A program made the position numbers and the translations under genes. From an uncultured Solibacteraceae bacterium (GTDB lineage Bacteria; Acidobacteriota; Terriglobia; Bryobacterales; Bryobacteraceae), in NCBI GenBank assembly GCA_964478455.1, contig CAYZJD010000003.1, forward strand, positions 1 to 37,247: 37,247 nt of DNA, given 5' to 3'. This document shows positions 23,474 to 26,019 of this stretch, piece by piece. Position 1 is the first letter of the stretch. Every line of letters begins with the position of its first letter. The notes under the pieces were generated by a model. The model was given only the letters and a program-made list of their open reading frames with translations. It did not search any database and was not told the origin of the DNA.

Positions 23474-23502
23474 ATTGTGACGCAGAAACGGTTCTATTTC
23501 AA
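23474..23502 (-). promoter_or_regulatory. Candidate sigma-70 promoter for the FliA-like gene
   Basis: Minus strand reads TTGAAA-N17-CACAAT. The -35 overlaps the last codons of the kinase gene. The match is only partial. Confidence 0.3.
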
Positions 23503-26019
23503 TCGGATTCTCAGCGCCGCCTCCGGATCGGTTGCGCACCGGAACCCGATGGCCGCGTGCCGGTTGGCTACGAGTCTCGGCGGATGCGACGCTCGATTCG
23601 TCGTGCGGGCCATGATCGGCGGCAGAATGAATCCTCCGCCACGGATCACCCGCTGGCCACGCTCACTCGCCGGAAGCCCGGCGGGATTGCCTTCGTAGAG
23701 TCCGTACTCGTTCTCCACCCACTCGGGCACATTCCCCGCCAGGTCCAACACCCCATAGAAGCTACGGTCTTGCAGGAAAGACCCTGCCGCTGCCGCGAAC
23801 TCGCTGCCGTCCTCCCCGCCCCGCAAATTCGCCGCGCTGTCAACGTACTCGTTGCCCCAGGGGTAAAGCAACGCGCCGGTTCCTCGCGCCGCCTTCTCCC
23901 ATTCCGCCTCACTCGGCAGCCGCTTGCCCGCCCACGCGGCAAACGCTCTCGCCTCCTCCCATGAGATGTTCATCACCGGATAGTCGGTCTTGCTGAAGTA
24001 CTCCGGATCCCAATCCGGATTCGCCGGATATGGCTGCCTCGAAACGTCGCAGAACTCCTTGTAGCGGCCGTTGGTCACCTCCAGCCTGTCGATATAGAAG
24101 GCGGACAGCTTGACCGGGTGCGCCGGAGCCTCGTTCTGGTACCCGAAGGACTCGCTCCGCCGCCCGTGATCGTTCCCCATCACAAACTCTCCCTCGGGAA
24201 TCAGCACCATCTCTCCGGTACTCGTTTCGATCACCGGCGGATACTCCAATGGTTTCGCCTTCCTGCCCTCCGCCGCCAAGCGCTCCTGCTCTGCCTTCTT
24301 CCTCGCCTGTGCCGCTGTCTGGTCTTCGCTTCGCTTCTTCTCCAGCAGTTGCTCGAGCCCGGGCACGAGCTTGGCCAGCGCCACGAGGTTCGACCGGTTG
24401 CGCCATGCGAGCCACGCCCCCGCAGCCAGCGCCACCACCAGCACCACGAGAACCACTGCCACCACCAGCGCTTTGGGTTTCCTTTCTTCTTCTTTCTCCT
24501 TCGGCCCAGCCGGTGCAACCTCCGAGGCCACCTCCAAGAATTGCGTGACGTCCAGCCGGCCCTTGCCCTCCTCGAGCATCTTCCGGACGTCGGCTAGGGA
24601 CTTCACCCGGCGCGACCGTTCCTTCTGCACCATCTGCTCGATGACGTCCGACAGCGGAGGGTAGAAGCCAGCCAGCAGCGCCTTCAGCGGCTTGGCCTGC
24701 CGTTTCGGGTCGCCGTGCCAGTTCAGCCACGCAAAGTCCGAGCCGTCCGCGAGCACGTCGGCAAACTGCCGGCGAAACAATCTCCCGCCCAGGAGGATTT
24801 CGTAGAACATGAACCCGAGGACATAAATGTCCTCGGCCTGTCTCCACTCTTGTGAGCCAGGTTTCACCTCCACGCCGGTTTGTTCCTGGAACATCTCGGG
24901 CGCGGCGTATTTCGCCTCACCGGCGATGGCGGTGGCCGCACCGTCCACGGCGGCCTCGGCCGCGATATCCACCTTACCCCCGCCCAGAATCCGAATCGCC
25001 CGTGAGAGCGGGGGATGAGCCATGTTGGCATTGTGGATTTCGTTCAACCGCTCCACGATGGCGACGAACAAGGGAAGCACCGATAGAGGATCGGCCGGTT
25101 CCTCGGCAATCAGCGCTGCCAGGGTGTCACCCGCTTTCCTGGGACGGGCACCGGAGGCACCCGCGGCTTCCAGCGCCTTCAACAGCTCCTCGACCGACTG
25201 GAACCGCTCCGACGGCTCCGGCGCCAGGCACTGTTGGACCACCTTCGCTATCCCCTCCGGCGTCTCCGGCAGTTCCTTGGCGATCGACGGCGCCGGCGAC
25301 GTGATGCGCTCTTTCAGGGTTGCGTTCTCCAGCGGCTTTTTGCCCGTGAGCAACTCGTAGAACATCACTCCCGCGGAGTAAATGTCGGAGGCCCGGGAAG
25401 GCTCCCGGCCCATCAGCAGCTCCGGCGCCATGTAAGCCGGCGTGCCGATCGGGGCCCCCACCGTTCGATCGCTGCTCAGGTCCCTGGCGATGCCGAAGTC
25501 CATCAACTTCAACACGCCCCCGCTCGCCAGCATCACGTTCAGCGGCTTGATGTCGCGGTGGAGGATCCCCTGCGAATGCACATGCGTCAGGGCCTCGCAG
25601 AACTGCCGCGCTAGGGTCAGGAACTCCTCCGGAGAGAACCGCCCGCGCTCGCGCAGAAGCTGAGTCAGGTTCGGCCCGTCGATGAACTCCATCGTGATGT
25701 AGAGCAGCCCGCGATGCTCGCCGATGTCGTGAATGCGAACCACGTTGCGGTGTGTCAGCCGGCGCGCCACCAGCAGTTCCTGCTTGAACTTCTCCAGCAG
25801 CTTTGCGTCCTCTGCGATTCCAGGCCGGATCGCTTTCAGCGCGATGATCTCCCCGATGAGCCGGTCCCGCGTCTTGTAGACCGAACTCATGCCCCCGGTT
25901 CCTAGGTGCTCCAGGATCTCGTACCTGCCGGCGAACACCTCGCCTACCTGGGGCAGCGCGAGCGCCATCGTCTGGGTACGGTCCGCCAGCGGGTCGGTGA
26001 TGTCCTCTGGTCCAGCCAT
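23494..26019 (-). CDS. Membrane Ser/Thr protein kinase with a degenerate second kinase-like region and an extracytoplasmic FGE/SUMF1-type domain
   Basis: 841 aa. Hanks kinase motifs (GTGGMSSVYK, HRDIKPLNVML, DFGIA, GTPAYMAPE). TM helix ALVVAVVLVVLVVALAAGAWLAW. C-terminal FGE-sulfatase family motifs (MVLIPEGEFVMGND, FYIDRLEVTNGRY, ISWEEARAFAAWAGKRLPSEAEWEKAARG, RVIRGGGF). Confidence 0.9.
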   Translation of the reverse strand: MAGPEDITDPLADRTQTMALALPQVGEVFAGRYEILEHLGTGGMSSVYKTRDRLIGEIIALKAIRPGIAEDAKLLEKFKQELLVARRLTHRNVVRIHDIGEHRGLLYITMEFIDGPNLTQLLRERGRFSPEEFLTLARQFCEALTHVHSQGILHRDIKPLNVMLASGGVLKLMDFGIARDLSSDRTVGAPIGTPAYMAPELLMGREPSRASDIYSAGVMFYELLTGKKPLENATLKERITSPAPSIAKELPETPEGIAKVVQQCLAPEPSERFQSVEELLKALEAAGASGARPRKAGDTLAALIAEEPADPLSVLPLFVAIVERLNEIHNANMAHPPLSRAIRILGGGKVDIAAEAAVDGAATAIAGEAKYAAPEMFQEQTGVEVKPGSQEWRQAEDIYVLGFMFYEILLGGRLFRRQFADVLADGSDFAWLNWHGDPKRQAKPLKALLAGFYPPLSDVIEQMVQKERSRRVKSLADVRKMLEEGKGRLDVTQFLEVASEVAPAGPKEKEEERKPKALVVAVVLVVLVVALAAGAWLAWRNRSNLVALAKLVPGLEQLLEKKRSEDQTAAQARKKAEQERLAAEGRKAKPLEYPPVIETSTGEMVLIPEGEFVMGNDHGRRSESFGYQNEAPAHPVKLSAFYIDRLEVTNGRYKEFCDVSRQPYPANPDWDPEYFSKTDYPVMNISWEEARAFAAWAGKRLPSEAEWEKAARGTGALLYPWGNEYVDSAANLRGGEDGSEFAAAAGSFLQDRSFYGVLDLAGNVPEWVENEYGLYEGNPAGLPASERGQRVIRGGGFILPPIMARTTNRASHPPRLVANRHAAIGFRCATDPEAALRIRLK

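What the first reader, a model, noticed from the sequence alone, without database searches (positions are those of the whole stretch)
23494..26019. Receptor Ser/Thr kinase directly upstream of a T3SS that carries two FHA-domain components
A membrane Hanks-type kinase with an extracytoplasmic FGE/SUMF1-like sensor domain is the immediate upstream neighbour of the sigma/T3SS array, on the same strand. FHA domains (in SctQ and in the tail-anchored SctD-like protein) read phosphothreonine marks. The arrangement parallels the PpkA/Fha1 threonine-phosphorylation switch of the Pseudomonas H1-T6SS. It also parallels the reported phosphorylation of the FHA-containing SctD homolog CdsD by PknD in Chlamydia. 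An external signal sensed by the FGE-like domain could thus trigger T3SS assembly post-translationally.
Basis: inference. Interest (0 to 1): 0.65.

Follow-up and report, generated by a model that had tools for sequence, protein, structure and literature searches.

The report
T3SS-linked receptor kinase in Acidobacteria
A membrane sensor kinase sits beside a soil acidobacterium's secretin-less type III secretion genes, and its kinase family occurs almost only in genomes with that machine and next to it, so it is very likely a dedicated regulator, probably through a phosphothreonine-reading membrane FHA protein.

Summary
Observation confirmed. Window 23494-26019 (-) encodes an 841-aa single-pass Hanks kinase. 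It has intact K62, HRD and DFG motifs, a second C-lobe-only pseudokinase module, and an outward-facing FGE-sulfatase-fold domain that lacks FGE's catalytic cysteines. It lies 135 bp upstream of a FliA-like sigma gene that heads a secretin-less T3SS cluster. The genome belongs to Acidobacteriota, order Bryobacterales.

The linkage is not chance. Among 251 genomes of the order, 9 carry the FHA-SctQ T3SS, and all 9 carry this kinase subfamily on the same contig. Only 1 of the 242 other genomes has it. The gene sits next to the sigma gene (same strand or divergent) or next to the tail-anchored FHA gene. Relatives add PP2C and FHA-TM-trypsin partners.

- The tail-anchored FHA protein keeps a canonical phosphothreonine pocket.
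- The FHA domain of SctQ never does, in any of 18 orthologs.
- Many orthologous receptors are catalytically dead, yet they keep an invariant juxtamembrane Thr (T492).

Most likely mechanism (inferred): phospho-T492 recruits the FHA protein. The main rival is control through the sigma factor. No phosphotransfer has been shown. The scan noted a similar kinase, pseudokinase and FHA set around an acidobacterial T3SS in another genome (e1-4158175).

The parts
23494..26019 (-). Receptor Ser/Thr kinase gene, 841 aa. A member of a T3SS-associated kinase/pseudokinase family.
   Evidence: Clade with 100/100 support. Phyletic link.
25180..25923 (-). Catalytic Hanks kinase domain, aa 33-280, with K62, D156 (HRD), D174 (DFG) and APE198 intact.
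   Evidence: Pfam E 2.4e-62. Motif alignments. AF2 pLDDT is mostly 85-96.
24550..25131 (-). Second, C-lobe-only pseudokinase module, aa ~297-490. It keeps H..PL.P..I, KYAAPE, DIYVLGF.FYE and W..WH but has no Gly-loop, VAIK or catalytic Asp.
   Evidence: Matches Pkinase HMM positions 148-253 only. Alignments. pLDDT 80-95.
24544..24546 (-). Codon of T492 (RLDVT492QFL), the invariant juxtamembrane threonine and proposed phospho-docking site.
   Evidence: Invariant column in A2, 19 sequences. Present in 17/18 and 16/16. It sits where the model's confidence drops into a 492-516 linker before the TM helix.
24400..24477 (-). Single transmembrane helix, aa ~515-540.
   Evidence: It falls within the only hydrophobic window in the protein, ~aa 512-541. 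Helix 517-540 in the model.
23533..24216 (-). Extracytoplasmic FGE-sulfatase-fold domain, aa 602-829. It is non-catalytic: both FGE cysteines are absent.
   Evidence: Pfam E 2e-48. Alignment to human FGE 1y1e shows no Cys at the C336/C341 positions.
23474..23502 (-). Sigma-70-like promoter TTGAAA-N17-CACAAT, overlapping the kinase stop codon and aimed at the sigma gene.
   Evidence: The same boxes are conserved in L096 and L056. No terminator lies in the gap.
22636..23358 (-). FliA/WhiG-like sigma factor gene that heads the T3SS array.
   Evidence: Region 2.2 keeps acidic residues and has no ECF43-type Thr.
6747..22527 (-). T3SS core: SctI, J, L, N, O, P, FHA-SctQ, FliO, SctR, S, T, a LysM-like protein, SctU, TPR proteins, SctV. 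No secretin.
   Evidence: The genome's secretins lie only on contigs C359 and C138.
16124..17689 (-). SctQ with an embedded FHA domain (aa 123-187). Its pThr pocket is degenerate: the Ser position is A and the Asn position is L.
   Evidence: 18 orthologs.
4532..5125 (-). Tail-anchored FHA protein with a canonical GR / SREH / SSNG pocket, an Ala/Pro linker and a C-terminal TM helix. The likely true start is V24, at about 5056. Proposed reader of the kinase's phosphothreonine.
   Evidence: It is the kinase's direct neighbour in G042 and in the P0012, P0016, P0015 and P0007 loci.

Best explanation
The gene encodes a dedicated sensor of the adjacent secretin-less T3SS. It belongs to a small, unnamed family of single-pass receptor (pseudo)kinases with this layout: Hanks kinase domain, C-lobe-only pseudokinase module, invariant juxtamembrane Thr, TM helix, variable ectodomain.

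Shown:
- The family co-occurs with this T3SS type and is encoded at its head (next to the sigma gene) or its tail (next to the tail-anchored FHA gene).
- The window's copy has all catalytic residues.
- Its ectodomain is an FGE-fold domain without the catalytic cysteines.
- The tail-anchored FHA protein has an intact pThr pocket. The FHA domain of SctQ does not.

Inferred mechanism: a ligand or envelope cue at the FGE-like domain activates the kinase. The kinase, or another kinase where the kinase domain is dead, phosphorylates the exposed juxtamembrane T492 and possibly other sites. The membrane-anchored FHA protein, an SctD reduced to its cytoplasmic domain plus TM helix, docks on that pThr at the inner face of the membrane. 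This docking licenses or positions assembly or activity of the export apparatus and sorting platform. A PP2C, unlinked here and adjacent in relatives, resets the switch. The FHA domain in SctQ is a phospho-independent interaction module.
For: Co-occurrence. The pseudokinase+TM signature (E<1e-15) is found in 10 of 251 genomes of the order, and FHA-SctQ in 9. All 9 are among the 10, always on the same contig and 5-25 kb apart. Fisher p is about 1e-15, uncorrected for relatedness. In the 41 closest genomes the split is 4 of 4 against 0 of 37.

Adjacency survives rearrangement:
- Same strand upstream of sigma: window, G057, G265, G244, L043, L056.
- Divergent from sigma: G041, L051, G066, G149.
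- In a divergent FHA-trypsin/PP2C/STK/ECF/STK module: G007, G261, L047, L049.
- Convergent with the FHA-TM gene: G042.

Kinase-first sampling gave the same result. Of 5 homologs looked up, 4 sit 80-470 bp from the FHA gene at a T3SS tail.

The kinases form a 100/100 clade that excludes all other G000 kinases. The same-genus genome G001 lacks both the kinase and the T3SS.

FHA-TM keeps GR, SRxH and S-x-NG in 5 of 5 orthologs and aligns to ArnA, FhaA, GarA and Rad53 FHA1. These residues are kept even where the linked kinase is dead (G041, G042). T492 is invariant and lies at the edge of a low-confidence linker before the TM helix. The one family member in a genome without the T3SS (G219) lacks this Thr. 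The only two FHA domains detected in the G000 assembly are the two in this cluster.

Precedents: PpkA-pThr-TssL-Fha in T6SS (PMC3953482) and PknD phosphorylating CdsD (PMC2765968).
Against: No phosphorylation, binding or phenotype data exist; everything mechanistic is inferred from sequence and gene order. T492 could be conserved for structural reasons. Its +3 residue is aliphatic in most but not all sequences. In most loci the kinase is next to the sigma gene rather than the FHA gene, which fits a transcriptional route as well. In G007-type loci the family member is paired with an ECF43-like sigma (LQPTA motif). Several orthologs are catalytically dead (L039: K to R, HRA, ACC; most FHA-adjacent ones), so a second kinase must be invoked there. 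No PP2C or FHA-trypsin is linked in this genome; the assembly is 82% complete. Co-occurrence counts are inflated by shared ancestry and by possible transfer of the whole island.
Confidence: 0.5

Rival explanations
1. Transcriptional route. The kinase controls the cluster through the adjacent FliA-like sigma factor. It could phosphorylate the sigma directly or inactivate an unidentified anti-sigma, as PknS-EcfK and PknT-EcfP do for ECF43 sigmas. The FHA proteins would then be structural.
For: In 10 or more loci the kinase gene is the immediate neighbour of the sigma gene, in either orientation. In G007, G261 and L049-type loci the family member follows an ECF sigma carrying the ECF43-like LQPTA motif. 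G265 and the P0015 locus also have ECF+STK pairs beside the cluster. A transmembrane STK that switches on a secretion system by phosphorylating its sigma is documented (PMC13147305). The kinase gene has no sigma-28-type -10 box upstream, as expected for an upstream regulator.
Against: Region 2.2 of the T3SS sigma keeps its acidic residues and has no conserved Thr of the ECF43 QTTA type in 10 orthologs. Catalytically dead orthologs (G041 next to sigma; most FHA-adjacent ones) cannot phosphorylate a sigma, yet they stay linked. At least five loci place the gene at the far end, next to the FHA gene. This route does not explain the invariant T492 or the canonical FHA pocket.
Confidence: 0.25
2. 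Scaffold or receptor role without the protein's own catalysis. The conserved function of the family is a membrane platform made of the pseudokinase module and the juxtamembrane segment. This platform positions or nucleates the T3SS at a site chosen by the ectodomain. The window's intact kinase domain is an ancestral extra.
For: HRD or DFG residues are lost in L039, L095, L099, L033 and in most of the 15 database homologs, while the C-lobe module, T492 and the TM helix stay conserved. The own-genome paralog on C136 is pseudokinase+TM only.
Against: The window's copy and at least nine other family members keep every catalytic residue, which implies selection for activity. PP2C neighbours in relatives imply real phosphorylation cycles.
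Confidence: 0.15
3. One reading: both FHA domains, in SctQ and in the tail-anchored protein, read kinase-made phosphothreonines on T3SS parts.
For: Both domains match PF00498 well. The Arg and His of the FHA core are invariant in SctQ.
Against: In 18 of 18 SctQ orthologs the phosphate-contacting Ser is A, G, T or N. The conserved Asn is L, M or V, never N. SctD-type FHA-like domains of classical injectisomes similarly lack a canonical pocket (my recollection, not checked here).
Confidence: 0.07
4. Coincidental neighbour or island hitch-hiker with an unrelated target.
For: These genomes encode 17 to more than 80 STKs each. A few family members (G219, G057b, G005a, P0011) lie away from any T3SS.
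Against: The expected chance of adjacency is about 2% per locus. The family shows near-perfect co-occurrence with the T3SS and stays linked through at least four different gene orders.
Confidence: 0.03

Closest known systems
Threonine phosphorylation pathway of T6SS (PpkA / PppA / Fha1 in P. aeruginosa; PpkA, pThr-TssL and Fha in A. tumefaciens, PMC3953482)
   Same: A single-pass receptor Hanks kinase, a PP2C (in relatives) and a canonical FHA protein are encoded with a secretion-system cluster. The proposed logic is that a pThr on a membrane component is read by the FHA protein to trigger assembly.
   Different: The machine is a T3SS, not a T6SS. The ectodomain is FGE-fold, DUF8082 or absent, not vWA. 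There is an extra C-lobe pseudokinase module. The FHA protein is tail-anchored. Many orthologs are dead kinases. Nothing has been tested biochemically.
Chlamydia PknD phosphorylating the FHA-bearing SctD homolog CdsD (PMC2765968)
   Same: A Ser/Thr kinase is connected to an FHA-containing T3SS basal-body protein.
   Different: In Chlamydia the FHA protein is the substrate and a full-length SctD, and the kinase gene is not part of a conserved kinase-sigma-T3SS array.
PknS-EcfK (X. citri) and PknT-EcfP (V. parahaemolyticus): ECF43 sigma factors activated by a transmembrane Hanks kinase (PMC13147305)
   Same: A transmembrane STK with a sensory periplasmic domain is encoded beside a sigma factor that drives a secretion-system cluster. 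G007-type relatives carry a true ECF43-like sigma next to the family kinase.
   Different: The window's sigma is FliA/WhiG-like, not ECF43, and lacks the phospho-switch Thr in region 2.2.
M. tuberculosis receptor kinases that recruit FHA proteins through juxtamembrane or activation-loop pThr (PknB-FhaA, PknH-EmbR, PknB/G-GarA). This is recalled knowledge. The FHA domains of FhaA, EmbR and GarA were the best solved matches.
   Same: The same architecture logic: a kinase, a juxtamembrane Thr and a canonical FHA partner.
   Different: There is no secretion machine in those cases. Here both partners are membrane-anchored and encoded in a T3SS island.
Secretin-less 'Myxo' non-flagellar T3SS, including the M. 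xanthus needle-less T3SS* (PMC3459982, PMC12075869)
   Same: A non-flagellar T3SS core without a secretin, in a soil bacterium.
   Different: The lineage is acidobacterial. It also has an FHA domain in SctQ, a FliO, a FliA-like sigma and the linked kinase family. Relatedness to the Myxo clade was not tested here.

Membership tests
Hanks-type Ser/Thr protein kinase (PF00069) | Profile match over the whole catalytic domain. | tested here: met
   Pkinase E 2.4e-62, aa 33-280, profile positions 1-258 of 263.
Hanks-type Ser/Thr protein kinase (PF00069) | Catalytic triad: VAIK-Lys, HRD-Asp, DFG-Asp, plus APE. | tested here: met
   K62, D156, D174 and APE198 are present. Orthologs L039, L095 and most FHA-adjacent homologs fail this test.
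Hanks-type Ser/Thr protein kinase (PF00069) | Phosphotransfer activity. | not testable with these tools
   Needs an in vitro kinase assay.
Formylglycine-generating enzyme (FGE/SUMF1, PF03781) | FGE-sulfatase fold. | tested here: met
   E 2e-48. Human FGE 1y1e matches at E 4e-25.
Formylglycine-generating enzyme (FGE/SUMF1, PF03781) | The two catalytic cysteines (human C336 and C341). | tested here: not met
   The aligned segment reads GGGFILPPIMARTT and contains no Cys. It is a fold relative, not an FGE enzyme.
Canonical phosphothreonine-binding FHA domain: tail-anchored protein 4532-5125 | The conserved Gly-Arg, Ser-x-x-His and Ser/Thr-x-Asn-Gly residues. | tested here: met
   GR, SREH and SSNG are present and conserved in 5 of 5 orthologs.
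Canonical phosphothreonine-binding FHA domain: SctQ 16124-17689 | The conserved Gly-Arg, Ser-x-x-His and Ser/Thr-x-Asn-Gly residues. | tested here: not met
   GR and His are kept. The Ser position is A, G, T or N and the Asn position is L, M or V in 18 of 18 orthologs.
SctD (T3SS inner-membrane ring protein) | A cytoplasmic FHA-like domain, a TM helix and periplasmic ring-building domains. | tested here: not met
   The protein ends 3-4 residues after the TM helix and has no periplasmic part. It works at most like the cytoplasmic third of SctD.
T6SS-type threonine phosphorylation pathway (PpkA/PppA/Fha) | Kinase, PP2C phosphatase and FHA protein encoded together with the secretion cluster. | tested here: inconclusive
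   The kinase and the FHA protein are in the window. PP2C is absent from the window; one unlinked copy lies on C262. PP2C is adjacent in G041, G007, G261, L047 and L049.
T6SS-type threonine phosphorylation pathway (PpkA/PppA/Fha) | pThr-dependent binding of the FHA protein that triggers secretion. | not testable with these tools
   Needs biochemistry and genetics.
ECF43 sigma / Hanks kinase pair | The sigma belongs to ECF43, with non-acidic region 2.2 and a conserved Thr (QTTA). | tested here: not met
   The window's sigma is FliA/WhiG-like, with D/E..AELGLVEAA and no conserved Thr. The G007 ECF has LQPTA.
Non-flagellar T3SS | SctV and SctN equivalog scores; SctJ, L, O, P, Q, R, S, T and U present. 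| tested here: met
   TIGR01399 scores 781.5, above the cut-off of 692. TIGR02546 scores 636.8, above 604.8. Pfam.
Non-flagellar T3SS | Secretin SctC in or near the cluster. | tested here: not met
   No secretin in the window. The genome's two secretins are on other contigs.

The most novel reading that the evidence does not exclude
A threonine-phosphorylation switch dedicated to a type III secretion system. A receptor (pseudo)kinase family carries an invariant juxtamembrane phosphothreonine. That phosphothreonine is read by a tail-anchored FHA protein that descends from SctD and has lost its periplasmic ring. The docking licenses assembly of a secretin-less T3SS in response to an envelope or prey/host cue sensed by exchangeable ectodomains (FGE-fold, DUF8082). 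This would be a T3SS counterpart of the T6SS PpkA/Fha pathway, and a case where pseudokinases are the conserved core of the signalling device.
Probability: 0.35. Interest if true: 0.75.

Novelty: new variant of a known kind. Interest (0 to 1): 0.62.

Why it matters
Post-translational control of secretion machines by Hanks kinases and FHA proteins is established for T6SS. For T3SS it is only hinted at, by in vitro work in Chlamydia. Here comparative genomics gives a clean, repeated association between one kinase/pseudokinase family and one T3SS lineage. The partners can be named: a tail-anchored canonical FHA protein, PP2C and FHA-TM-trypsin. There is also a single-residue prediction, T492. This makes the idea directly testable. 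It may also help explain how the enigmatic secretin-less T3SSs of soil bacteria are switched on, and what their reduced SctD and their FHA-bearing SctQ do. In addition it supplies a natural series of live and dead kinases for studying bacterial pseudokinase function.

Tried and rejected
2. FHA-TM-trypsin partner in the own genome: not found (the assembly is 82% complete). The only PP2C is unlinked, on C262.
3. ECF43-type phospho-switch motif in the T3SS sigma: absent.
4. Sigma-28-type -10 box (GCCGATAA) upstream of the kinase or in the kinase-sigma gap: none. The only exact minus-strand copy is at 22636-22643, inside the end of the sigma gene.
5. A secreted effector kinase, like the Chlamydia Pkn5 or Yersinia YpkA type: rejected, because the protein has one TM helix and a large ectodomain.
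6. An active FGE enzyme: rejected, because there are no catalytic cysteines.
7. The 526-aa ORF upstream of sigma in G005 is a spurious Arg-rich antisense frame. The real gene there is an M28 peptidase.
8. The metagenome scan gave only three further loci with usable upstream sequence.
9. Synteny with same-genus G001 to fix the island borders: the housekeeping genes are scattered over several contigs, so only a rough boundary between 28.2 and 28.7 kb could be inferred.
10. In the kinase-domain tree the degenerate G042 copy falls outside the clade on a long branch. Its membership rests on the pseudokinase+TM match.
11. Fold search of the AF2 model was not run, because the kinase fold would dominate the results.
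Full report
WHAT IS THERE

The window is contig C3 of an 82%-complete metagenome-assembled genome with 414 contigs and about 64% G+C. Record titles of the related loci place it in Acidobacteriota, Terriglobia, among Bryobacterales, Bryobacteraceae and Solibacteraceae.

ORF 23494-26019 on the minus strand encodes 841 aa. Its parts are:
- A complete Pkinase domain at aa 33-280 (Pfam E 2.4e-62), a second weaker Pkinase stretch, and an FGE-sulfatase domain at aa 602-829 (E 2e-48).
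- An intact catalytic apparatus: K62 in IALK, H154-R-D156, D174-F-G, A198-P-E.
- A second stretch (aa ~297-490) that matches only profile positions 148-253 of the kinase model, that is, the C-lobe. It has no Gly-loop, no VAIK Lys and no catalytic Asp, so it is a C-lobe-only pseudokinase module.
- A single hydrophobic segment at about aa 512-541. This puts both kinase modules in the cytoplasm and the FGE-like domain outside.
- An FGE-like domain that aligns to human FGE (1y1e, E 4e-25) but has no cysteine at either catalytic position. It is a binding or sensor fold, not an enzyme of that family.

An AlphaFold2 model was built on a 19-sequence alignment (mean pLDDT 75.5, pTM 0.41). It gives both kinase modules high confidence. 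It shows a low-confidence linker at aa 492-516 between the last helix of the pseudokinase module and the TM helix at 517-540.

THE SURROUNDINGS

Downstream on the same strand, after a 135-bp gap, lies a sigma factor with regions 2 and 4. It is closest to FliA/WhiG but scores below the curated cut-off. The cluster then continues in this order:
- SctI, SctJ, SctL, SctN, SctO, SctP
- an SctQ with an embedded FHA domain
- FliO, SctR, SctS, SctT
- a LysM-like protein, SctU, TPR proteins, SctV
- more TPR and unknown proteins
- a 197-aa FHA protein that ends in a TM helix
- three DUF4384 proteins and a caspase-TPR protein

SctV and SctN pass NCBIfam's non-flagellar equivalog cut-offs. There is no secretin in the window; the genome's two secretins are on other contigs. 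The machine is therefore of the secretin-less kind described for Myxococcales (PMC3459982, PMC12075869).

Upstream of the kinase are a TonB-dependent receptor (82-bp gap), two unknown genes, a HepT-like gene and then housekeeping genes: lpd, lipB, an acyl-CoA synthetase and nnr. A sigma-70-like promoter, TTGAAA-17-CACAAT, overlaps the kinase stop codon and points at the sigma gene. Its two boxes recur in the two closest same-order loci. No terminator-like site lies in the gap. The observation as written is thus confirmed.

IS THE NEIGHBOURHOOD MORE THAN CHANCE?

These genomes hold many Hanks kinases: 17 matches in G000 and up to more than 80 in G005 at E<1e-30. The chance that a given 3-kb segment touches one is still only about 2%. 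Three independent lines show real linkage.

(a) Gene order. I collected T3SS loci through FHA-SctQ and inspected the flanks.
- A full-length homolog of the window's kinase (35-42% identity over about 810-860 aa, same domain order) lies directly upstream of the sigma gene on the same strand in G057/L096 and L056. L043 and G244/L098 show the same arrangement but are cut by the contig end. G265/L097 shows it without the FGE domain.
- The kinase is divergent from sigma in G041/L039, L051, G066/L099 and G149/L100.
- In the Sulfopaludibacter-like group (G007, G261, L047, L049) the sigma gene faces a divergent operon. That operon encodes an FHA-TM-trypsin protein, a PP2C phosphatase, another STK, an ECF sigma and then the family kinase.
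- In G042 the family member is at the other end of the cluster, convergent with the tail-anchored FHA gene and 140 bp from it.
- Only G005 (fragmented cluster; kinase 6 kb beyond sctQ) and G009 (about 13 kb beyond the FHA gene) are looser.

(b) Phylogeny. In kinase-domain trees these proteins form a clade with 100/100 support and a long stem. The clade excludes every other kinase of G000 and the co-located STK621 type.

(c) Phyletic pattern.
- The clade-specific part (aa 291-598) hits at E<1e-20 in exactly the 4 of 41 nearest genomes that have FHA-SctQ.
- In an even sample of 251 genomes of the order, 9 have FHA-SctQ and 10 have the kinase signature. All 9 are among the 10, and the two genes always share a contig.
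- Fisher p is about 1e-15. This is not corrected for shared ancestry or for transfer of the whole island, so it overstates the evidence.
- The single exception, G219, has no T3SS-type SctN.
- The same-genus genome G001 has neither the T3SS nor the kinase, while flanking housekeeping genes are 75-83% identical at the DNA level.

A search that started from the kinase rather than the T3SS gave the same answer. Only 16 proteins in the 5.8-billion-protein collection match aa 291-560, and none is named beyond 'serine/threonine protein kinase'. Of the 5 I looked up, 4 lie 80-470 bp from an FHA gene at the tail of a T3SS cluster.

THE FHA DOMAINS

The tail-anchored protein carries the full set of phosphothreonine-pocket residues (GR, SREH, SSNG). 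It aligns to ArnA, FhaA, GarA and Rad53 FHA1. The residues and the C-terminal TM helix are conserved in all five orthologs aligned. This includes the two orthologs whose linked kinase is catalytically dead.

The FHA domain of SctQ keeps the Arg and the His. However, the phosphate-contacting Ser is A, G, T or N, and the conserved Asn is L, M or V, in 18 of 18 orthologs.

The FHA-TM-trypsin proteins of relatives are canonical (GR, SRxH, SRNGT). They have a TM helix between the FHA domain and the protease.

A PF00498 search of the whole G000 assembly finds only the two FHA domains of this cluster.

LIVE AND DEAD KINASES, AND ONE INVARIANT THREONINE

Alignment of 18 family members from loci and 15 from the protein database gave three results.
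- The window's copy and at least nine others keep all catalytic residues.
- L039 (K to R, HRA, ACC instead of DFG), L095 (K to R, NFG), L099 and L033 have lost them. So have most of the homologs that sit next to the FHA gene.
- The C-lobe module, the TM helix and one threonine between them are conserved throughout. That threonine is T492 in RLDVT492QFL. It is an invariant column in the 19-sequence alignment A2, present in 17 of 18 and in 16 of 16.

The residue at +3 from T492 is usually L, I, V or M. From recalled knowledge, pTxx(I/L/V) is a common FHA ligand pattern, and acidic-x-T-Q with a hydrophobic residue at +3 resembles mycobacterial STPK sites. I did not test either point. The only sequence without the Thr is the G219 copy, from a genome without the T3SS. 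T492 lies exactly where model confidence falls into the juxtamembrane linker.

MECHANISM

Shown:
- The kinase family and the T3SS belong together.
- The window's kinase looks catalytically competent.
- One FHA partner is a plausible pThr reader, and the other is not.

Inferred:
- The ectodomain senses an extracytoplasmic cue.
- T492, and perhaps other sites, becomes phosphorylated in cis, or in trans where the kinase domain is dead.
- The membrane-anchored FHA protein docks there and couples the signal to the export apparatus.
- A PP2C reverses it.

I put about 0.85 on 'dedicated T3SS regulator' and about 0.5 on the pThr/FHA-TM route as the main output.

The main rival (0.25) is control through the sigma factor. 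The kinase is most often the sigma gene's neighbour. G007-type loci pair the family kinase with an ECF whose region 2.2 reads LQPTA, as in ECF43. PknS-EcfK shows that a transmembrane STK can switch on a secretion system in this way (PMC13147305). Three points count against this rival. The T3SS sigma keeps its acidic region 2.2 and has no conserved Thr there. Dead kinases remain linked. The gene is often found next to the FHA gene. The two routes are not exclusive.

COMPARISON AND NOVELTY

The logic is that of the T6SS threonine phosphorylation pathway (PMC3953482) and of mycobacterial kinase-FHA pairs. The only T3SS precedent I found is PknD phosphorylating CdsD in vitro (PMC2765968).

Literature searches for T3SS with Acidobacteria and FHA, or with Solibacter, found nothing relevant. 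A recent atlas of bacterial STKs lists FGE-sulfatase and DUF4384 as accessory domains of one family but does not mention secretion. NCBIfam has no family that this kinase passes.

Another agent of this scan reported a dead membrane kinase, an FHA protein and a live STK around an acidobacterial T3SS in a different genome (e1-4158175). My results were obtained independently and agree with that note. They add the order-wide co-occurrence test, the sigma-adjacent arrangement, the T492 prediction and the SctQ pocket survey.

I class the finding as a new variant of a known kind.

LIMITS

All functional statements are inferences from sequence, gene order and distribution. Most carriers are uncultured MAGs. 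The co-occurrence statistics are not corrected for phylogeny.

Noticed in passing
G000 contig C136, 6999-8642 (-) (locus L036): A second family member in the same genome: a 547-aa protein made only of the C-lobe pseudokinase module (46% identical to aa 291-571 of the window kinase), the conserved Thr (RMDQTQAV), a TM helix and an unknown C-terminal domain. It lies next to BatA/VWA/DUF58 genes, not next to a T3SS.
   Followed up: partly
L031 13177-19790 (G007); also L046, L047, L049, L050, L101: A divergent operon faces the T3SS sigma gene. It encodes FHA-TM-trypsin (cytoplasmic canonical FHA, periplasmic protease), PP2C, a 621-aa STK, an ECF sigma (PF07638) with the ECF43-like LQPTA motif, and then the family kinase. 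FHA-trypsin also flanks the kinase in L039 and L051.
   Followed up: partly
L097 654-5928 (G265); L106 4186-7498: Additional ECF(PF07638)+STK pairs lie directly beside the T3SS-linked kinase. Several kinase/sigma modules seem to converge on these clusters.
   Followed up: no
window 23385-23404 (-): A perfect palindrome, CTGTGTG-N6-CACACAG, starts about 25 bp upstream of the sigma start codon and looks like an operator. It was not seen in the corresponding gaps of L096, L056, L097 or L098.
   Followed up: partly
whole G000 assembly: A PF00498 search finds only two FHA domains in 4.2 Mb, both in this T3SS cluster. The relatives show several FHA-region matches in ORFs of about 540-740 aa.
   Followed up: partly
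window 3-4489 (-): Three tandem DUF4384 proteins and a caspase-TPR protein follow the FHA gene. The bacterial STK atlas (10.1101/2025.01.12.632604) lists DUF4384 and FGE-sulfatase as alternative ectodomains of one STK family, so DUF4384 may belong to the same sensory world.
   Followed up: no
window 23533-24216 (-): The FGE-fold ectodomain also matches the T9SS ring lipoprotein PorK/GldK (PDB 9mzu/9ots; NCBIfam TIGR03525, E 1.5e-25), a periplasmic ring-forming member of the fold, and PvdO.
   Followed up: no
window 29910-30734 (-): A 274-aa protein with a HepT-like ribonuclease domain only in its C-terminal 100 residues. It may be a fused or extended toxin-antitoxin element at the edge of the island.
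   Followed up: no
G005:C308 and C200; G244:C57; G066:C3: sctQ matches contain in-frame stops (TGA, TAG, TGA), and the G005 cluster is split over two contigs with a separate SctQ C-terminal ORF. This could be decay, programmed SctQ-C expression or assembly error.
   Followed up: no
window 26102-28117 (-): The TonB-dependent receptor directly upstream of the kinase has only a 65% DNA match in same-genus G001, while orf28729 is 83% identical. It may belong to the variable island together with the kinase.
   Followed up: partly
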